Shown here: in pieces, positions 1 to 57,249 of the stretch
Layout: every line of letters begins with the position of its first letter
Position numbering within the stretch: the first letter of the stretch is position 1
Source: Heptranchias perlo
Lineage: Eukaryota
Length of the DNA stretch: 64,000 bases
Assembly (NCBI RefSeq): GCF_035084215.1
Contig: NC_090326.1
Coordinates: 54,002,001 to 54,066,000 of the forward strand
Direction: 5' to 3'
Position numbers and translations under genes: made by a program
The notes under the pieces: generated by a model
Databases searched by the model: none
The model's input: only the letters and a program-made list of their open reading frames with translations
Told to the model about the DNA's origin: nothing

Positions 1-279
1 CTGCTTCAGCATAAATGTGGCCTAAATCAGTTACACGCAAATGTCCTCAGAAAAATTACAGTGCAGCACCGCTATTACGCCATAGTTACGTCAAAACTTT
101 CCAGGAAATTCTGGGCCTATATATTCTACCACAGGTGGACCATAAAGCACTATAACATTGACAACCAAATATCAGGACATTACAAAGAACAGCTCAGAAT
201 ACAAAGACTATCGTCCCTATGCAAAGGCAGGGGCACAAAAATGGAAGTAGGATTTTAAAAAAAACAAATTCAAAATGTT

Positions 280-413
280 GTTTTGATGTAAGCTCCTCAA
301 CTTGAAACCTTAACTCTGTTTCTCTCTCCACAGATGCTGCCTGAACTGCTGAGGGTTTCCAGCTTTTTCTGTTTTTATTTCAGATTTCCAGCATCTGCAG
401 CATTTTGCTTTTG
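280..413 (+). mobile_element. Penelope-like element pseudo-LTR 3' fragment (hammerhead core decayed)
   Basis: GAAACCTTAACTCTGTTTCTCTCTCCACAGATGCTGCCTGA...CAGATTTCCAGCATCTGCAG matches the terminal segment attached to the RT/GIY-YIG element at 33801-35375 and the copies at 38281 and 43045. Confidence 0.75.
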
Positions 414-11965: not shown

Positions 11966-12752
11966 CATTCCAGATTATAACAACTTGCTGAGTAAAAAAA
12001 ATTCTCCTCATCTCCCCCTTGGATTAAGCATTTGTATGCAATACTTTAATGAAGACATTGACCCATTTATTTTAATACATCAATGCCTCTTTAAAAATAG
12101 TGGACAAAGGAACTGCATGAAGATACATGAAGTGTTCATGTGCTAATATTAGCATAGCGTAATTTCAAACTTGTTGACACTGGGCATAAACATTTGGGTT
12201 AGGTTAAAATTTGGATTTGGTGTCATCAATTAAAGTTAGTGAAAACATTGTTTCCATGTATCAGGAACTCCCCAGTAGACTACCAGTAACTGGATGACCC
12301 CAATAGATTCTACACATAATTGTTTTGGATTTTCTTTTAAAAATAATTTTTTAAAGGCATCTGAATCTGAGTATTAAAGGTCAGAAATTGAGGGCAGCAC
12401 AAGCCTGAAATTCCAATATGCACTGCTGATGGCAAAGCTCTCGATCGGCAGTACAGATTCATAAAATTATCCATTAAGCATGGTCCCAAAAATGATATGA
12501 AGGATCTCTATAACATATATTTTTTATTTGTTATTTTTATTTTTAGCTTTCTTCCCTATTTCTACTTATGTTTTCCCCACACAATCAAGTCCCAACTATT
12601 GTGCCCCCCTCTGAGTGTGGACACATTCCGAGGTCCAGTCCCGTTCAATCACTATGTCCAAACCATATGCCTCTCTGTCCAACTCTGCCTAACCCTTCCT
12701 CTCTGCCCTCCCCAGATTCCCTTCTTTGTTTTGCCCTCCCTCTCTACTGGAC

Positions 12753-13230
12753 CCAGCACTGACCCAACTAGATCCAGCATTGACCCAACTAGATCTAGCA
12801 CTGACCCAACTAGATCCAGCATTGACCCAACCAGATCTAGCACTGACCCAACTAGATCCAGCACTGACCCAACTAGATCCAGCACTGACCCAACTAGATC
12901 CAGCACTGACCCAACTAGATCCAGCACTGACCCAACTAGATCCAGCATTGACCCAACTAGATCTAGCACTGACCCAACTAGATCCAGCACTGACCCAACT
13001 AGATCCAGCACTGACCCAACTAGATCCAGCACTGACCCAACTAGATCCAGCACTGACCCAACTAGATCCAGCACTGACCCAACTAGATCCAGCACTGACC
13101 CAACTAGATCCAGCACTGACCCAACTAGATCCAGCACTGACCCAACTAGATCCAGCACTGACCCAACTAGATCCAGCACTGACCCAACTAGATCCAGCAC
13201 TGACCCAACTAGATCCAGCACTGACCCAAC
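12753..13230. repeat. 21-bp minisatellite (CCAGCACTGACCCAACTAGAT) x 22 units plus 16 bp
   Basis: Direct tandem array with few C>T variants; explains the overlapping repetitive ORFs at 12497-13271. Confidence 0.98.
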
Positions 13231-22869: not shown

Positions 22870-24061
22870 ATGGCTAGGACATCGCAGGAGGAAGACAATG
22901 ACCATCCACGGCAGCAACGTTGTGCTGTGGTGGGATCAGGTGCACAAGAGAGAGATTCACAACACAGATCTGGAGAACAGCAGAGAGGGGAGCAGAGTGG
23001 AGCACAGTAGAGAGGAGAGCAACAGAGGGGCCAAGGTCATGGAAGGCACTACCCACGTGAAAGGGTCTACAGACAGAGGTCCAGCTTCCTTGACCTATCT
23101 GAAGAGCAGTGCTTCTGCAGGCTCAGATTGACCCGGCAGGTGGACGCAGACATCTGCAACCTCCTTCAAGAACAGTTCCTTCCTGCTGGACCTGGTGGCC
23201 ACGCATTGCCCATCACAGTAAAAGTTACCGCAGCCCTCAATTTCTTTGCCTCTGGCTGCTTCCAGTGCGCCACCAGAGACAGATCTCCAGGGTCTCTCTG
23301 TCAGCTGCACATAAATGTATAAGATGGGTTGTTTGCCATGGTGTCCACATGTGAACTTCCCCTGCGATGACAATAGTCAGAATGAGCGGGAGGTCGGTTT
23401 CACCTCTCTGGCTGGCTTCCCACAGGTACAAGGTGCCATCGATTACACTCACATGGTAATCTGAGAGCCATCACATGACCCAGGAGTTTTTACCAACTGC
23501 AAGGGATTTCACTCCATCAATGCAAGTGTGTGCAACCACAAGAAGAGGTGTGCTCCAGATTCCGTGGCAGCCTATATGAGGCTTTTATACTGTGGCAGTG
23601 CAATGTTCCAGATTTCTTCCTACCAGGAGACAGATTTAAGGGCTGGCTTATAGGAGACAAGGGATACCCCCCTTCAAATTTGGCTCATGACACCTGTAAG
23701 GAACCCCACCAATGAGGCACAACAGCGCTACAACCAGAGCCACATGACCACCAGATGTGTCATTGAGCAAACCATCGGCGTGTTGAAGATGTGCTTCAGG
23801 TGCCTAGACAGGTCTGGAGGCGCTCTTCAGTACTCGCCAGTGAGGGTGTCCAGAATCATCGTGGTGTGCTGCTTCCTGCACAACATTGCGCCACAGAGAG
23901 GATTAAAGGTGGAGGAGGACGAAGGCACTCGTCAATCATCTTCTGTTGACGAGAACATTGAAGAGGAGGAGGATGAGCAACATGAATATGGGGCATGCAT
24001 CGCCACTTACATTGCTGCCTGGGATGACTGGAATGCCCTCATATCTCAAAGGTTCACTTAG
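22870..24061 (+). pseudogene. Harbinger DDE transposase (HARBI1-like family), frameshifted
   Basis: ALNFFASG.FQ, GFPQVQGAIDYTH, WLIGDKGYP, YNQSHMTTRCVIEQTIGVLK..FRCLD and IIVVCCFLHN motifs spread over several frames. Confidence 0.9.
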
Positions 24062-29750: not shown

Positions 29751-31724
29751 CGAAGTAACATTAGGCAATGACCTACTTGACCTCGTCCTCAGCAATCTAC
29801 CTGTCACAGATGCATCTGTCCATGATGGTATTGTTAGGCGTGACCACAGCATTGTCCTTGTGAAGACCAACTTCTCCCTTCACACTGAGGACACCCTCGA
29901 TCATGTCATGTGGCACCACCACTGTGCTAAGTGGAATAGATGAGAACAGGTCTAACAGTTCAATACTGAGCATCTATGAGGTGCTATGGGCCATCATCAT
30001 CAGCAGCAGCAGAATTGTATTCCACCACAATTGATAACCTCATGGCAGAGCCCAACATGTGAGTGCAAAAGACAAGGCTGAAGCTTTTGCAACCACCTTC
30101 AGCCAGAAGTGCCGAGTGGATAATCCTTCCCAGCCTCCTCCTGAGCTAAGGCTGCACTACAGCGACTGCCAAACAGACCGTTACTTCTGAGGAAGCAAGA
30201 CAACAAGCTGATGGCCAGAGAATTTAATCGATTGAAATCCCTTCTGAGGTGTCACCGAGTCAAATTCCGAATTGCTTATTTCACGCACATATTTTGTTCC
30301 TAATGCAAGACCGATGTAAAGAATTGTTAAAAACAGAATGATCCTGGAAATCTGAGGTCCCCACCATCACAGATACCAGTCTTCAGCCAATTTGATTCTC
30401 TCCACATAATGTCAAGAAACGGCTGAGTGCACTGGACGCAGCAAAGGCTATGAGTCCTGATAACATCCCGGCTGTAGTGCTGAAGACCTGTGCTCCACAA
30501 CTAGTCGCGCCCCTAGCCAAGCTGTTCCAGTACATCTGCAACACTGGCATCTCCCCAAAAAAGTGAAAAACAGAATTAATACAACCAGCCAATTACCGTC
30601 CCATCAGTCTACTCTCAATCATCAGCAAGGTGATGGAAATAGTCATCAACAATGCTATCAAATGCCACTTATCACCAATAACCTGCTTACCGATGTTCAG
30701 TTTGGGTTCCACCAGGACCACTTGGCTCCAGACCTCATTACAGTCTTGGTCCAAAAATGGACACAAGAGCTGAATTCCAGAGATGAGATGAGAGTGACTG
30801 GCCTATACAGCAAGGCAACGTTTGGCTGAGTGTGGTACAAGGAGCCCGAGTAAAACTGAAGTCAATGGAGATCAGGGGGAAAACTCTCCAGTGGCTGGAG
30901 TCATACCTAGCACAAAGGAAGATGGTTGTGGTCATTGGAGGCCAATCATCTCAGCCCCAGCACATCGCTGCAGGAGTTCCTCAGAGCAGCATCCTAAGCC
31001 CAACTCTCTTCAGCTGCTTCAGTCAATGACCTTCCCTCCATCATAACGTCAGAAGTTCGCTGATGATTGCACAGTGTTCAGCTCCATTCGCAATTCCTCA
31101 AATAATGCCCGCATGCGGCATGACCTGGACAGCATCCAGGCTTGGCCAGATAAGTGGCAAATTACATTTACACAACACAAGTGCCAGGCAATGACCATCT
31201 CCAACATGACTGACCCTAACCACCTTCCCTTGACATTCAACCGAATTCCCCCACTATCAATATCCTGGGGTTCACAATTGACTAGAAACTCAACTGGATC
31301 AGCCGCATAAATGCCATGGCAACTGGACCTGGTCAGAGGCTGGGTATTCTGTGGCAAGTGGCTCACCTCTTGATGATCCAAGGCCTCTCCACTACCTACA
31401 AGACACCAGTCTGGAGTGTGATGGAAAAATCTCCACTTGCCTGGATGGATGCAGCTGCAACAGCACTCAAGATACTCGACATTATCCAAGATGTGGAGAT
31501 GCCGGTGATGGACTGGGGTTGACAATTGTAAACAATTTTACAACACCAAGTTATAGTCCAACAATTTTTATTTGAAATCTACAAGCTTTCGGAGGCTTCC
31601 TCCTTCCTCAGGTAAATGTTCAGGAGCTCCTCGAAGCCTACGCATTTATACATATAGAACAATACATGGTGTTTACAGACTGCCCCTGCAACTGCCCGTT
31701 GCCAAGGCAATCACCGTGTTCAGA

Positions 31725-31933
31725 TGTGGAGATGCCGGTGATGGACTGGGGTTCACAATTGTAAACAATTTTACAACACCAAGTTATAGTCCAACGATTT
31801 TATTTTTAATCCCACAAGCTTTCGGGGGCTTTCCCCTTCCTCAGGCGCCTGAGGAAGGGGAAAGCCCCCGAAAGCTTGTGGGATTAAAAATAAAATCGTT
31901 GGACTATAACTTGGTGTTGTAAAATTGTTTACA
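31725..31933 (-). mobile_element. Palindromic Penelope-type element nested in the outer copy
   Basis: 12-bp TSD ACCGTGTTCAGA (31713-31724, 31934-31945); perfect 176-bp palindrome 31759-31934 with no loop; same tail as the outer copy. Confidence 0.9.
31846..31882 (+). ncRNA. Minimal type I hammerhead ribozyme motif (mirror copy on - strand at about 31811-31847)
   Basis: CTGAGGA 31849-31855, stem II GGGG/CCCC, GAAA 31870-31873, then GC-TT; the 5' strand of stem I is shortened at the palindrome centre. Confidence 0.65.
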
Positions 31934-32137
31934 ACCGTGTTCAGACAGAGAGGTGTCACCTACAGAACCCCCGAATACACATTCAACAAAAAAATGTGTA
32001 TTCGGGGGTTCTGTAGGTGACACCTCTCTGTCTGAACATGGTGATTGCCTTGGCAACGGGCAGCTGCAGGGGCAGTCTGTAAACACCATGTATTGTTCTA
32101 TATGTATAAATGCGTAGGCTTCGAGGAGCTCCTGAAC

Positions 32138-32178
32138 ATTTACCTGAGGAAGGAGGAAGCCTCCGAAAGCTTGTAGAT
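32138..32178 (+). ncRNA. Minimal type I hammerhead ribozyme motif (mirror copy on - strand at about 31577-31617)
   Basis: ATTTAC-CTGAGGA-A-GGAGG aag CCTCC-GAAA-GC-TT-GTAGAT: core CUGANGA/GAAA/UH, stem I ATTTAC:GTAGAT, palindromic AGCT stem III. Confidence 0.8.
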
Positions 32179-33896
32179 TTCAAATAAAAATTGTTGGACT
32201 ATAACTTGGTGTTGTAAAATTGTTTACAATCGACATTATCCAAGACAAAGCAATCCGCTTGATAGGCACCTCACATTGAACCGTGGCTGCAGTGTGTACT
32301 AGCTACAGAATGCATTGCAGCAAGTTGCCAAGGCTTCTCTGACAGCACCTCCCAAATCTGTGACCTTCACCAGCTGCAAGAACAGTGACAGCAGGTGTAT
32401 GGGAATAACACCATCTCCAAGTTCCCCTCCAAGTCACAAACCATCCCGACTTGGACATATATCGCTGTTCCTTCTTCATCACTGGATCAAAATCTCTACC
32501 TAACAGCACTATGGGAGTACCATCACCACACGGACTGCAGCAGTTCAAGAAGCCAGCTCACCACCACCTTCTCAAGGACAATTAGGGATGGGCAATATAT
32601 GTTGGCTTTGCCAAGGATGCCCATATCCTGAGAATGAACATTAAAAACACATAAATGGATAAATTTGTAATTCAAATTAAATGTATAAATATGTTCGCAA
32701 ATTGATTTATAAATGGTAAATTCTAATTTGTTTAATTGTAAAGCATCCAAGTGGGCTGCAAATATATTTACTTTTATGCATAAATTAATCAAATTGGTTT
32801 AATAATTTAAAAAAATATTTATTCATTGACAAATTCATAAACAAATGTAAAACATAAGACCTCTGACTCCCTCTCACTTGGGTAATTTGTAATTACACAT
32901 CTTTCAATTTAACACCAACATAATTGGTAATTAAATTATATACTAACATATCAAAGTTAGGCAATATATTTCTGAATTAATGAGTACATTTAACATCATT
33001 TTAAAATTGATTAACATCTTTCTGAATTAATTCATACTTATATGAAATTAATACAATCAATAACTTGTTTGTGAATTAATTTGCAAATTTATTAATTCAT
33101 TTCAAATGTAATACATTTTGATTCTCCCTTACATCTGCTCTGGTAACTCCACTTTTACACCAGAGCTTCCGAAATCCCCTCCGAAGTGGTTAACAGAGCC
33201 CTTGGCCATTTCCCATGTTTCTCCTCGTCATTTTCCCCTCCTTTGACAACGGTGACAGGGTCTCCTCCTTGTTCTGACTTTCCACCCAGCAGCCTCTGCA
33301 TTTTCTAGATCATCTTCTGGCAATTCTGCCATGTTCGAAGAGGTCCTACCACCAGCCACTTCAGTCCCCTCCCCTCACACCCAGTACCTTACCTTTCAGT
33401 AGGATTGTTCTTTTCACAACATCCTAGTCCACTCTTCCAACATCCCAGCTATCAGCAGCTCTTTCCCTGGTCCCTTCCCGTACAACCACAGGAGATGCAA
33501 TACCTATCCATTCATCTTCTCCCATATCATTGTCCAGGGCCCCAAACACTCCTTCCATATTAGCCAGTAATTTATGAGAGCTTCCTCTAATCTAGTAAAT
33601 TGTATTTGTTGCTTATGGTGTGGTCTCCTCTACATTGGGGAGATCAAAGGCTTTTAGGGGACCGTTTTGCCAAATACCGTTGTTCGTGCCTATGTGTGTT
33701 GCTGATTTTCACGTGGCTCAGCATTTTAATTCCCACCTCCCATTCCTATTCTGACCTCTCCATCATTGACTTTTCATGGCCATTCCAAGGATGCTTAATG
33801 TAAAAGCAAAATAATGCGGTTGCTGGAAATATGAAATAAAACCAGAAAATGCTGGAAACACTCAGCAGGTCAGGCAGCATCTGTGGAGAGAGAAAC

Positions 33897-33935
33897 AGAG
33901 TTAACGTTTCAGGTCAATAACGTTTTCATCAGAAC
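33897..33935 (-). ncRNA. Hammerhead ribozyme motif of Penelope pseudo-LTR (second family)
   Basis: Reverse strand GTT-CTGATGA-AAACGTTATTGACCT-GAAA-CG-TT-AAC; stem II mutated. Confidence 0.55.
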
Positions 33936-34095
33936 GACATAGAATTACATAAAATTTGCAGCACAGAAATAGGCCATTTGGCCCAAGTGGTTCATACCGG
34001 TGTTTATGCTCCACACAAGACTCCTGCTACCCTTCTTCTTCTCACCCTATCCTTCTATTCCTTTCTCCGTCATGTGTTTATCTATCACATCTATC
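33936..34095 (-). mobile_element. CR1 3' tail inserted in the Penelope pseudo-LTR
   Basis: Matches the reverse complement of 29636-29750; flanked by CAGAAC (33930-33935, 34096-34101). Confidence 0.7.
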
Positions 34096-35732
34096 CAGAA
34101 CTGGAAGAAGTTAGAGATTTAACAGTTTTTAAACAAGTGGGATGGGGGAAAGGAAAGAACAAAAAGGAAGGTCTGTGATAGGGTGGCGGGCAGGAGTGAT
34201 TAAAGGCCAAAGGGATAATGGTGCAAGGCAAAAGGATAAGAAAAGAAACAAAAGATGGGTCCAGCGGAGGTGTAAATAGTTACAACGTAACCATTAACAA
34301 CACCTGCTGTCGGAGAAAATGGGAACGGTGGTTATGATTTAAAATTGTTGAACTCAAGGCTGTAAAGTGCCTAATCGAAAGATGAGATTCTGTTCCCCGA
34401 GTTTGTGTTGAGCTTCATTGGAACAGAGTTGAAGGGCGAGGACAGAGATGTCAGAGTGGGAGTGGAATGGAGAATTAAAATGAGAAACGACCGGAAGCTC
34501 AGGACCACGCTTGCAGACTGAATGGAGGTGTTCAGCAAAGCAATCACCCAATCTGCGTTTGTTCTCCCCAATGTAGAGGAGACCGCATCATGAGCAGCGA
34601 ATACAGTATACTAAATTGAAAGAAGAAGCAAGTCGTTTTTCACCTGGAAGGAGTGTTTGGGGCCCAGGACAGTGGGAAGAGAAGAGGTGAAAGGACAGGT
34701 GTTATATCTCTTGCGCTTGCACGGGAAGATGCCGGGGAAGGGGAGCAAGTGTTGGGGGCCATTGAAGAGTGAACCAGGGTGTCATAGAGGGAATGGTCCC
34801 TACAGAATGCTGACAGAGGAGGGGAGGGAAAGATGTGTTTGGTGGTGGCATCGGGCTGGAGGTGGCAGAAATGGCGAAGAATGATCTGGTTGAATGTGAA
34901 GGCTGGTGGAATGGAAAGTGAGGACAAGGGGAACCCTATAGAAGTTCTGGGAGGGAGGGGAAGTGGTGAGAAAAGTGTGGGAAATGGGATGGACACGGTT
35001 GAGGGCTCTGTCAATCACAATGAGGCGAATCCTTGGTTGAGGAAACAAGAAGATATATCAGTAAAGATGACATTTTCCAGTTCAGGGCGAGAACAGGAAG
35101 TGGCACCAACACCAACACAGTCACCAATGTACTGAAAAAAGAGGTGAGGGAGGGGACCTGAATAGGACTGGAACAAAGAATGTTCCACATACCCCATGAA
35201 AAGGCAGACATAGCTAGGACCCATATGGGTTCCCTTAGCAATACCTTTTATTTGGAAGAAGTGAGTGGAGTCAAAGGAGAAGTTGTCCAAAGTGAAAATA
35301 AGTTCAGCCAGGCGGAGGAGGGTGGCGGTCGATGGGGACTGGTTGGGCATGCCTTCAAGGAAGAAGATAGAAAAAGCTTAATGCAAAGCTGCAGGAATGG
35401 CACCAAATCTTTCTCTGGCCTGAACACTGACTTTAGTAACTTCAGTCCTTAGTTATATCCTTCATTTTCTTTGAGTGGACAAAGGGGGATGCAGGTGGGT
35501 GTTTGGCCTTATGACCTTCGTCAGAGCACAGTGCTGGCAGGGAGTCTGCCCCCCTGTTGCTCTGCTTTTTTCTCTTTTTCGAGTTGGCATTGAGCACTCC
35601 GAAGTCAGGTATGTGTTCAGTGAAATGCAGAGTAAAGTTCTCTCTACACTGTGCAAATGCTTTTTAAAACAAATCCAGCATCAGTACAGACCCTCCTATT
35701 AGATCAATACTAGAATTCATACCAAAATATAA

Positions 35733-35967
35733 TTGTAAACAATTTTACAACACCAAGTTATAGTCCAGCAATTTTATTTTAAATTCACAAGCTTTCGGAG
35801 GCTTCCCCCTTCCTCAGGTGAACGATGTGAACATCGTTCACCTGAGGAAGGGGGAAGCCTCCGAAAGCTTGTGAATTTAAAATAAAATTGCTGGACTATA
35901 ACTTGGTGTTGTAAAATTGTTTACAATTGTCAACCCCAGTCCATCACCGGCATCTCCACATCATGAC
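35733..35967 (+). mobile_element. Palindromic Penelope-type element, third copy, opposite orientation
   Basis: 13-bp TSD TACCAAAATATAA (35720-35732, 35968-35980); perfect 98-bp arms (35731-35828, 35831-35928), 2-nt loop, 39-nt tail on the right. Confidence 0.92.
35836..35876 (+). ncRNA. Minimal type I hammerhead ribozyme motif (mirror copy on - strand at about 35783-35823)
   Basis: GTTCAC-CTGAGGA-A-GGGGG aag CCTCC-GAAA-GC-TT-GTGAAT; stem I covaries relative to the 32138 copy. Confidence 0.8.
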
Positions 35968-36849
35968 TACCAAAATATAAGCATTTTCTTACTGTGGATA
36001 TATTCAGTTAGAACTGGTTGGGTGATATCCAAACTGATTTTTCTTGTGATCATTCCAGCCAGCTGAGAGAACGTTTTCATGCCATCTGTTTGAGCTAGCT
36101 TTGAACCGACATCCCAGACCAACAGTACACGTATGAACCCACTATTGCACAGTTCTCATCCTCCTCCCCACATTGTGCCATTGATTTAAGTTTTGCATTG
36201 CCTGTTGAGCAGCAGACTTCAGGATAAATGCAAGGGCATGAAAGAAAAAACAAACCATTTCACTACAGTATCGAGCTTTAGAAAACATTTATTGGCTTCT
36301 GGGTACTTATATTTTTGTTATTTAGTCTGAATTGCATATATTATTAAAGGATATTCAACTTAAATATATAAATAGTTGAATCTTCTATTGTGTTGCTGAG
36401 GGTAAGGGCAAATAAAGAATTATTTATAAGGAAGTGGAGATGGTATGGTGATGGGGGTGGGAAGTACATAGAAATACATAGAAGTTACAACATCGCAATT
36501 GGCCATTTGGCCCAAGCATCCCGTGTCATTCCCAGATGGCTGCAATCACTTGTTTAATTCTTGACTGCTGTACTCTTTCCAAAGCCCACTGGAATGTATT
36601 AATGGCAGATTGATGTATTAGTTTAATATGTGGCTGAAAAACTCCCTCCAAAGCCTGAATATATATGCGGCATACTTATTTATGTAGTTCACACCTGAAG
36701 CTCAACTTGTCCCAAAGCCCAAGTTAATTTATTTAGGCCGTGGTTATTCATTTAATTCCCAGCTGGCCTGCTCCCCACAAAGTGCAATTAAATTTGTCCC
36801 AAAATTAAAAGTTTAATTCTTCCTAAATTTAATTTTTTAAATATTAGAT

Positions 36850-38280: not shown

Positions 38281-38378
38281 CTGATGAAGGGTCATCAACC
38301 TGAAACGTTAACTCTGTTTCTCTCTCCAAAGATGCTACCTGATCTGCTGAGTATTTCCAGCATTTTCTGTTTTTATTA
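38281..38378 (+). mobile_element. Penelope pseudo-LTR fragment beginning at hammerhead core
   Basis: CTGATGA-AGGGTCATCAACCT-GAAA-CG-TT-AACTCTGTTTCTCTCTCC... Confidence 0.75.
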
Positions 38379-55398: not shown

Positions 55399-55554
55399 AA
55401 TATCTTTTCAGGCTCTTTGGGTTCCAGACACAGTACTAAGCCTCACTGCAGCCTCCTCCTGTGCCTGCTGCACTAAATGCTTCAAGGGGCGGTGGTCATC
55501 AATCCTTTAAAGTCTATCTTGGATGTTGGAGAGGCCGTGTAGCATCAAAACAAT

Positions 55555-57249
55555 GGGCGCTAAATTGGGCCGTGTAGCGCCCATTGTTTTGGTGCTACAT
55601 GGCCTCTCTGACATCCAAGATGGCGTTTTGGATGTGCACGCACGTTTCCAGCGTGACGTGCGCCGGACGCCATGTTAGTATAGGAGTTTGTGCAGGTGCA
55701 GATAACAAACGCTGGAATCATGTAAAGTAGGGAGAAAATGGCTTCAATCAGTGTGCTATGCTGATTTAAAGTGATAGGCACCATTTTGGGACTTAACGCT
55801 CAACTCAACGCACAGTCTTAACTCCGACCATATGAATGTGTCTTAGAGTGCCTGGAGGACCCCCACCAGTGCTATTTAAAGGGACCATGCAGGATTTATA
55901 GGTTAGTGGCTGGATTATTGCTTCTGTCTGCCGAGACATTTGTAACTGTTTTGGAGGTCTCCTACACTTGAATACTAGGATGTGGGGACATAGCCTAACA
56001 TTTAGAGCCAGGACGTGCAGGAGTGAAGTTAGGAAATGCTACTACACACACAGGGTGGGAGATGTTTGGAATGCTCTTCTGCAGATGGCAGTTGATGCTA
56101 GCTCAATTGTGAATATTAAATCTGAGATTGATAGATTTCTGTGAACCAAGGTTATTAAGGGATATGGGGTTAAGGTGGGTATAGGGAGTTAGGTCAAAGG
56201 TCCACCATGATCTCACTGAATGTCGGAACAGGCTCAAGGGGCTAAATGCCACTGCCACTTGCTGCCTTCTGTTATGCGCCATCTTCTCCTGCAAGAAAGC
56301 GGGACGTGTGCCTGGGTGATGATTGAATAGCTGCCAGTGTGTGGGACCTGTGAGTTGTGGGTGGGCGGCTTGAAACAGTGGTAATGTGTAAGGATGCGAG
56401 GAAGCATCTGGTTGGAAGAGTTGAGTACTGATGGAAAGAGTTTGTTGGTATGTGGGTGATGGGGGGTGTAGTGAGTGGTGCAGTTGGTAGGAGACGCCAC
56501 TTGACAGTTGACCTCACTCACCTTGACCACTCATGTCAAAGCATTGAACTTCTTCCTGCACTGCATCCATGTTCATGATGCTGTGCCCCTGGCATTGACT
56601 TCATCCCCCGTTGCTTCCCACTGCCTTTTTTATATATGTCTGGAGGGCTTCTTGCCCTCACCACCACCGCAACCCCCGCCCCCCCCCCCCCCCCCCGGCG
56701 GATATAGGCTGTCCCTCCTTCTGTCCACCTCTTGCACCAAAGTCTGTAATGCATCAGCAGAGAACCTTGGTGCATGCACTCTTGCAGGCCTGGTACCAAC
56801 TCAGATCAGCAGATTGGTGAGGTCTGGTGTGCAGATTGGAGGATGTGGGATTTAGTAGTGCGCAACCTTTATTCAATGTTTTACTATAACTCATCAGTGT
56901 TTAAACATAGGGATGGGACCTGCATTTGTGTTTTACGTGTGCGATGTCTGATCTCTGTTCAGACTCCATGCAGACAGTAGACTGTTATTTTCAGCGAATA
57001 ACAGGTACCAGCTACCTTTAAGAGATTTCTGAGAGATATCCTCCCTTGAAGAGATTGAGCTCCCCCTCGTGGTGGAAAATGCGAATTGCATTAATTCCAC
57101 GTGCAAGGCCTGGAAAGGAACGCTGATTGCAGGTGAGTCTTCAGGCCAGCCGAAACTTGCATCCTGCCTGTGGAGGGGCCACTGGGCACGGGGTAATGGT
57201 GCATCACGCTACCTGTGCCGAAAAACGGCCCTTATCCAATTTTTCCACC
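55555..57249 (-). mobile_element. Non-autonomous Harbinger with Myb/SANT exon remnants
   Basis: Ends GGGCGCTAAATTGG / CCAATTTTTCCACC; 56510-56790 reverse reads APRFSADALQTLVQEVDRRRD...WEATGDEVNA...QCRKKFNAL with stops; CR1 fragment inside. Confidence 0.75.
55975..56275 (+). mobile_element. CR1 3' fragment
   Basis: ACTAGGATGTGGGGACATAG...TGGAATGCTCTT...AAGGGATATGGG 3' end pattern. Confidence 0.75.

What the first reader, a model, noticed from the sequence alone, without database searches (positions are those of the whole stretch)
31476..35980. Family of small palindromic, hammerhead-bearing retroelements (three copies in 4.5 kb)
Seen: three non-coding elements, each an almost perfect inverted repeat (arms 238, 88 and 98 bp; loops 9, 0 and 2 nt), all with the same outer end (TTGTAAACAATTTTACAACACCAAGTTATAGTCC), a one-sided ~35-39 nt tail and their own 16, 12 or 13 bp TSD. 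The two arms of each copy are identical or nearly so, but copies differ from each other, and the fold-back point differs each time. Known: Penelope-like elements make inverted pseudo-LTR arrangements with a short tail and carry minimal hammerheads. Inference: the palindrome is made anew at each insertion by fold-back or second priming, so this behaves as a non-autonomous family whose insertions are hairpins with a ribozyme on both strands. Its pseudo-LTR differs from that of the coding Penelope at 33801-35375, so the partner is not in this window.
Basis: partly seen in the sequence, partly recalled or inferred. Interest (0 to 1): 0.8.

Follow-up and report, generated by a model that had tools for sequence, protein, structure and literature searches.

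The report
Short palindromic Penelope retrotransposon end insertions
Three short, recent insertions in a shark-like genome are mirror-image pairs of the terminal repeat of a Penelope-type retrotransposon, a known arrangement, here without the gene, whose junctions hint at how these elements copy themselves.

Summary
There are three head-to-head palindromes (arms 238, 88, 98 bp; loops 9, 0, 2 nt) with perfect 16, 12 and 13 nt target duplications and a one-sided 34-41 nt tail. The second copy is nested inside the first. Copies A and C fit the published minimal hammerhead pattern; B keeps only a 3-pair helix I. The anatomy is the known Penelope-like (PLE) one: inverted pseudo-LTR (pLTR), palindromic junction, one-sided tail, and opposite-strand hammerhead pairs are all in print. 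A separate non-autonomous family is not shown. The three fold points differ, so the palindromes are not copied as such, and a full transcript would bury the ribozyme in a duplex. Most likely they are ORF-less products of an autonomous Poseidon-like element, primed on both nicked strands at the two known RT start sites. One possibly new point: in 2 of 3 copies the fold point lies 28-37 nt downstream of a TATA box seen in the long copy, as if both cDNAs ran to the RNA's 5' end. The neighbouring Penelope remnant is unrelated and broken. Genome-wide counts, Repbase/Dfam and long reads could not be checked.

The parts
31476..31491 (+). TSD of copy A, left (16 nt)
   Evidence: exact repeat at 32230; single copy in paralogous LINE
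31492..31525 (-). 34-nt tail of copy A (3' extension, this side only)
31526..31983 (-). Left arm of copy A (pLTR reading leftwards), interrupted by copy B and its TSD
31587..31611 (-). Minimal hammerhead core and helix II, A left arm
31713..31724 (+). TSD of copy B, left (12 nt), inside A's arm
   Evidence: single copy in A's other arm
31725..31758 (-). 34-nt tail of copy B
31759..31933 (.). Copy B palindrome, arms 88/88 (one TSD base included), loop 0; hammerhead cores 31820-31844 (-) and 31849-31873 (+); helix I reduced to 3 pairs
31934..31945 (+). TSD of copy B, right
31984..31992 (.). 9-nt loop at the centre of copy A
31993..32229 (+). Right arm of copy A (pLTR reading rightwards, no tail)
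32044..32057 (+). X-box-like palindrome (RFX consensus recalled), mirrored at 31698-31711; candidate upstream promoter element
   Evidence: only 2 matches in the window, 0.07 expected; function inferred
32105..32111 (+). TATA-like box TATAAAT, 39 nt before the hammerhead core
   Evidence: such a box occurs in 6.8% of random 150-mers; function inferred
32144..32168 (+). Minimal hammerhead core and helix II, A right arm
32230..32245 (+). TSD of copy A, right
35720..35732 (+). TSD of copy C, left (13 nt)
35733..35926 (.). Copy C palindrome, arms 98/98 (two TSD bases included), loop 35829-35830; hammerhead cores 35793-35817 (-) and 35842-35866 (+)
35927..35967 (+). 41-nt tail of copy C, with ATG at 35963-35965 (possible start of the parent ORF, unverified)
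35968..35980 (+). TSD of copy C, right

Best explanation
These are young, ORF-less insertion products of a Penelope/Poseidon-like retrotransposon whose coding copy lies elsewhere in the genome. Shown: each is a pair of pLTR 3' ends joined head to head, with the tail on one side and a 12-16 nt TSD. Inferred: the RT/GIY-YIG protein nicks both target strands 12-16 nt apart. One nick primes cDNA at the distal RT start site (end with tail), the other at the proximal site about 34 nt upstream (end without tail), on the same RNA or on RNA from the same locus. The two cDNAs stop at about the same point and are joined through 0-2 nt of complementarity. For B and C that point is probably the 5' end of a transcript from the pLTR's own TATA promoter, so the ORF downstream of the priming sites is never copied. 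A comes from a longer, read-through RNA. The hammerhead is a passenger, not cleaved in these templates and sequestered in the product.
For: Anatomy and chance controls. All five testable features of the published minimal hammerhead alignment are met in A and C, with pair-preserving changes in helix II (A-U, G-C, G-U) and helix I (U-A to C-G). In the anole Poseidon the protein cuts and extends both strands, is predicted to be a dimer, and starts RT at two sites that bound the tail, in a stem-loop 111-118 nt from a start codon that sits just after hammerhead residue G8 (PMC11167929). From the equivalent base the tailed ends here lie at +114, +114 and +120, the short ends at +79 to +80 (counted). 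Short ends agree within 1 nt in 3 of 3 copies. 5 of 5 testable junctions show 1-2 nt target/template overlap. Loops of 0 and 2 nt are too small for a strand to anneal on itself. Inner ends of B and C map 37 and 28-31 nt downstream of the TATA box in A. No inner end lies at the ribozyme cut site (0 of 3), as expected if unprocessed RNA is the template.
Against: Only three copies. No partner ORF found. Identical arms and coincident inner ends are explained more simply by fold-back of one cDNA. A's centre lies about 110 nt upstream of the TATA box, so the 5'-end model does not cover it. The junction overlap is weak (P 0.04-0.10), and the in vitro paper reports initiation without homology to the cut DNA. 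Helix II covariation is not significant (206 of 500 shuffles). The promoter is inferred from motifs and was noticed after the fact; the Drosophila Penelope promoter is internal and TATA-less (PMC2377424).
Confidence: 0.55

Rival explanations
1. Same origin, but by fold-back: one cDNA starts at the tail, snaps back at its 3' end (or an antisense RNA self-primes), copies itself, and the endonuclease trims the second arm at the short end.
For: Explains identical arms and coincident inner ends directly. A's 9-nt loop with adjoining A/T runs suits a hairpin. Self-priming and EN-mediated resolution are the published proposals (PMC3846280; PMC8557442).
Against: Loops of 0 and 2 nt in B and C, with at most 1-2 bp to hold them. 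Both tail boundaries are RT start sites in vitro.
Confidence: 0.3
2. A dedicated non-autonomous family: promoter-bearing solo pLTRs such as A's left arm (X-box, TATA, hammerhead, tail) are the masters, and their short RNAs are mobilised in trans. This concerns the source RNA and is compatible with either joining mechanism.
For: 3 of 3 copies lack any ORF; A's left arm keeps the promoter motifs and tail. pLTRs suffice for mobilisation in trans in a rotifer. pLTR-derived non-autonomous retrozymes are described in vertebrates, including one chondrichthyan (bioRxiv 10.64898/2026.07.22.740005).
Against: B and C differ from A by 10 and 6 of 87 nt, so A is not their master. C's tail runs 7 nt further into an ATG. 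Retrozymes are tandem, not inverted. Most PLE insertions are 5'-truncated anyway.
Confidence: 0.25
3. The palindrome is the transposing unit (a MITE-like DNA transposon or a hairpin RNA copied whole).
For: Long terminal inverted repeats with identical outer ends.
Against: Three different centres, TSDs of three lengths, asymmetric tail, hammerhead motif.
Confidence: 0.04
4. Assembly or amplification artefact, or old copies whose arms were homogenised by gene conversion.
For: Palindromes are a known sequencing artefact (own knowledge); reads were not available.
Against: Perfect TSDs at all three; verified empty sites for A and B; one-sided tails differing at 0-1 of 34 nt between copies; 2 arm mismatches in A.
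Confidence: 0.03

Closest known systems
EN+ Penelope-like elements with an inverted 5' pLTR (Penelope of Drosophila virilis, Pen2a_Av of Adineta vaga; PMC3846280, PMC8557442, PMC2377424)
   Same: Head-to-head inverted pLTR, palindrome at the junction, 30-40 nt tail on one end only, flanking TSD.
   Different: No ORF between the repeats; TSDs 12-16 nt against 8-10 nt in the rotifer examples; whole insert 209-517 nt.
Poseidon of Anolis carolinensis, PAc (PMC11167929)
   Same: Hammerhead in the pLTR; tail bounded by two fixed ends; the distal end at a similar distance from the hammerhead core (+114 to +120 here, 111-118 there).
   Different: Here no ATG follows G8; the first ATG is at the end of the tail. 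No protein is in hand, so the clade is inferred.
Dispersed minimal hammerheads of truncated PLEs (PMC4209133)
   Same: Motif fits the consensus; pairs of motifs on opposite strands 100-700 bp apart are reported in Schistosoma; most motifs are not linked to an ORF.
   Different: Cores here are 4, 24 and about 310 nt apart; no cartilaginous fish appears among the rows of its Fig. S3.
Non-LTR retrozymes (bioRxiv 10.64898/2026.07.22.740005)
   Same: Non-coding, pLTR-derived, type I hammerhead, present in a chondrichthyan.
   Different: Defined as tandem direct repeats with at least two motifs on one strand; these copies are inverted and cannot supply a same-strand dimer.

Membership tests
Penelope-like element (EN+) | pLTRs in direct or inverted orientation, inverted copy head to head at the 5' end | tested here: met
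   sense hammerheads point outwards in all three copies
Penelope-like element (EN+) | 30-40 nt tail at one end only | tested here: met
   34, 34 and 41 nt
Penelope-like element (EN+) | Target site duplication | tested here: met
   16, 12, 13 nt; empty sites verified for 2 of 3
Penelope-like element (EN+) | Linked ORF with telomerase-like RT and C-terminal GIY-YIG | not testable with these tools
   No ORF in the copies; no eukaryotic DNA collection. Searches found nothing relevant.
Penelope/Poseidon clade | RT phylogeny; no Zn-finger linker between RT and EN | not testable with these tools
   No protein; assignment rests on tail and hammerhead spacing only
Minimal type I hammerhead (PMC4209133) | CUGANGA core, unpaired base, G-started helix II, GAAA, 4-nt palindromic helix III, H at the cut site | tested here: met
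   all three copies
Minimal type I hammerhead (PMC4209133) | Helix I of 3-5 bp or more | tested here: met
   5 pairs in A, 6 in C, only 3 in B
Minimal type I hammerhead (PMC4209133) | Covariation beyond chance | tested here: inconclusive
   One pair changed on both sides in helix II, 206 of 500 shuffles as high; three independent sequences
Minimal type I hammerhead (PMC4209133) | Self-cleavage as a dimer or with protein help | not testable with these tools
   Folding predicts the motif is buried in whole-copy transcripts
Rfam hammerhead families | Score at the gathering threshold | tested here: not met
   0 matches in the window
Non-LTR retrozyme | Tandem direct repeats with two or more hammerheads on one strand | tested here: not met
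   No tandem array in the region; repeats are inverted
Non-autonomous PLE family | Short copies descend from short masters, distinct from coding copies | not testable with these tools
   Needs the genome; three different centres argue against palindromic masters
MITE / DNA transposon | Fixed TSD length and symmetric ends | tested here: not met
   TSD 16, 12, 13 nt; asymmetric tail

The most novel reading that the evidence does not exclude
In this family the commonest insertion is a perfect short hairpin made by two primings at the two RT start sites of the 5' pLTR, both cDNAs running to the capped end of the element's own mRNA. Arm length would then report the transcription start, the two outer ends the two priming sites, and the centre the joining chemistry. 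The genome would hold a large natural record of the unresolved PLE integration step, and a self-made source of double-stranded RNA against the element's promoter region.
Probability: 0.3. Interest if true: 0.6.

Novelty: new member of a known kind. Interest (0 to 1): 0.32.

Why it matters
How PLEs make their tandem and inverted ends is still open (PMC8557442, PMC11167929). Young ORF-less palindromes isolate that step, and a genome-wide table of arm length, loop and junction overlap could separate two-strand priming from fold-back without new experiments. If transcribed, 88-238 bp perfect duplexes are candidate siRNA sources; in transgenic Drosophila, Penelope siRNAs map to inverted regions (PMC3681739). 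For annotation, such copies can be mistaken for MITEs or hairpin RNA genes. The architecture itself is not new.

Tried and rejected
Rfam at gathering threshold: 0 matches. Scan of prokaryotic genome contigs for a stray copy: 2 loci, both only the 20-nt pattern with no tail or hammerhead beside it, about the number chance gives. Protein search with a 40-residue stop-free frame of A's arm, to catch a fusion to a PLE ORF: 0 of 2 candidates. The 21-residue frame through C's tail was too short to search. Neighbouring Penelope remnant as partner: best DNA match 14 nt, E about 0.04; rejected. One search used a mis-registered structure string and is discarded; one search repeats it for helix II only, since the aligner's gap breaks helix I. 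Ribozyme cleavage as the cause of the fold point: rejected, 0 of 3 centres at the cut site. Clustering in 4.5 kb as a hotspot: with B nested there are two sites, not notable. Paper searches returned no description of this family, of PLE twin priming, or of ORF-less palindromic PLE families in sharks; subscription papers, Repbase and Dfam were not searchable.
Full report
Setting. The window is repeat-rich vertebrate-like DNA with LINE RT fragments and a DDE transposase fragment. The best-scoring relatives of its Penelope RT fragment include three whale shark gene models at 58-65% identity (3 of 10 looked up carried a name). A cartilaginous fish is therefore likely; the species was not determined.

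Observation. All stated numbers hold. A is 31492-32229 with a 16-nt TSD; B is 31725-31933 with a 12-nt TSD and sits inside A's left arm; C is 35733-35967 with a 13-nt TSD. A's 238-pair arms appear only after B is removed and have 2 mismatches, one a CpG-type transition. B and C have none. No other exact inverted repeat with a loop up to 10 nt exceeds 17 bp in the window, and only 4 of 3000 random window pairs share 12 nt or more. A's flanks join into a LINE sequence colinear with a paralogue at 45643-45302 that has the target once, and B's flanks match A's other arm. These are true insertions. C's empty site could not be tested. A profile of the arms finds no further copy in 64 kb.

Age and origin of the symmetry. 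Copies differ from each other at 10, 6 and 7 of 87 core positions, all in the hammerhead and the A/T stretch after it, while the tails differ at 0-1 of 34 and the TSDs are perfect. So the three are young and come from three different templates, and the symmetry was made at insertion. The centres differ in 3 of 3, which argues against the palindrome being copied as a unit.

Hammerhead. Six motifs lie in the arms, three per strand, each pointing outwards, so the arms are joined head to head. They fit the minimal hammerhead consensus in Fig. S3 of PMC4209133: core, unpaired base, helix II, GAAA, a 4-nt palindrome in place of helix III, U at the cut site. One helix II pair reads A-U, G-C and G-U in A, B and C; one helix I pair changes from U-A to C-G between A and C. 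With three sequences this is not significant (206 of 500 shuffles). Rfam has no match at threshold. B keeps 3 pairs of helix I. Folding shows helix II at 0.77-0.95 in one arm alone and 0.00 in whole-copy transcripts, with a 25-33 kcal/mol penalty to force it. Such motifs need a same-strand dimer and cleave poorly in vitro, or need protein help. The ribozyme in these copies is most likely a passenger.

What is known. Inverted 5'-truncated copies and a 30-40 nt tail on one end are general PLE features (PMC8557442; PMC8969392). Rotifer Penelopes show head-to-head inverted pLTRs with junction palindromes, 8-10 nt TSDs and solo pLTRs, and self-priming was proposed (PMC3846280). Hammerhead pairs on opposite strands 100-700 bp apart were reported in Schistosoma, in a set of motifs mostly attributed to truncated PLEs. 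Drosophila Penelope has inverted terminal repeats of variable size and a 34-bp repeat (PMC2377424). The anole Poseidon protein cuts and extends both strands and starts RT at two internal sites that bound the tail (PMC11167929). The finding is this anatomy with the ORF missing.

Mechanism. The short ends agree within 1 nt in all copies and the tailed ends fall at +114, +114 and +120 from the base after hammerhead G8, close to the 111-118 given for the anole element. I infer that each nicked target strand primed one arm. In favour: loops of 0 and 2 nt, too small for a strand to anneal on itself, and 1-2 nt target/template overlap at 5 of 5 testable junctions (weak, P 0.04-0.10). Against: fold-back explains identical arms and coincident inner ends with fewer assumptions, and fits A. 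Only A reaches far enough upstream to show TATAAAT at 32105 and an X-box-like palindrome at 32044-32057 (2 matches in the window, both in A, 0.07 expected; the RFX label is recalled). Mapped on A, the inner ends of C and B lie 28-31 and 37 nt after the TATA box, where a transcription start would be expected (own knowledge). If so, B and C are cDNAs that began 80-120 nt into an mRNA and ran to its 5' end, leaving the ORF uncopied. C's tail ends just after an ATG (35963-35965), which may be that ORF's start. This was noticed after the fact, rests on two copies, does not cover A, and the Drosophila promoter is TATA-less.

Autonomy. Nothing here shows a separate non-autonomous lineage, and nothing excludes it: A's left arm could itself be transcribed. 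The element at 33801-35375 has an 8-nt TSD, matches RT and GIY-YIG regions of full-length PLE proteins in three frames with stops and a missing middle, and has a Cys-rich linker of the kind described for Neptune and Nematis. Its end shares no more than 14 nt with the palindromes. It is not the partner. None of the 4 pLTR pieces of that older family is itself paired with an inverted pLTR, so the palindromic form is specific to this family or to young copies.

Papers seen. PMC4209133: abstract and opening, Results, supplement parts 1-2 of 3. PMC11167929: parts 1-2 of 4 of the text; Fig. S1 as text; Fig. S2 and the GenBank file were unreadable and hold the exact tail ends. bioRxiv 10.64898/2026.07.22.740005: parts 1 and 3 of 5 and passages; its closed supplements list chondrichthyan retrozyme families that may include this pLTR. 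PMC3846280: passages and Discussion. PMC8557442, PMC2377424, PMC8969392, PMC3681739: passages only. Eight searches found no account of this family or of the transcription-start coincidence; Repbase, Dfam and subscription journals were out of reach.

Verdict. Real, well formed and ordinary in kind: a new member of a known class. Its value is as clean material for the PLE integration mechanism. Interest 0.32.

Noticed in passing
window 31713-31945: Copy B inserted into a copy of its own family, about 40 nt from A's centre. A 0.5-kb target in 64 kb suggests self-targeting or a liking for cruciform-prone DNA; one event only.
   Followed up: partly
window 33801-35375 (-): Broken Neptune-like PLE remnant with 8-nt TSD GCTTAATG; its pLTR hammerhead is split from the 3' UTR by a 160-nt LINE-like insert flanked by CAGAAC (33930, 34096).
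   Followed up: yes
window 33257-33760 (+): Second PLE ORF fragment, about 67% identical to the remnant and tail to tail with it; probably an older independent insertion.
   Followed up: partly
window 275-412, 38281-38377, 43043-43162: Three more pLTR pieces of the older PLE family, 73-89% identical to 33801-33940, none in an inverted pair.
   Followed up: yes
window 32181-32186 and equivalents in B and C: AATAAA is kept in all three copies just after the hammerhead, followed about 25 nt later by a G/T-rich stretch, like a polyadenylation signal; a 7-bp hairpin ends exactly at the short end.
   Followed up: no
window 55516-55621 and 38562-38736: Two older, unrelated palindromes (85% and 70% self-complementary), no clear TSD; the second has a partial copy at 42215-42283. 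MITE-like.
   Followed up: partly
window 47743-47782: 40-nt palindrome with 17-bp arms right after a (TTTC)n run, at a junction between LINE fragments.
   Followed up: no
window 12746-13230: Minisatellite of 23 copies of a 21-nt unit, 96% matches, open in several frames on both strands.
   Followed up: no
window 23657-24058 (+): DDE_Tnp_4 transposase fragment, E 4e-14; Harbinger-like by recall.
   Followed up: partly
window 47710-49836 (+): Long LINE ORF2 fragment with RVT_1 matches, broken by one stop.
   Followed up: partly
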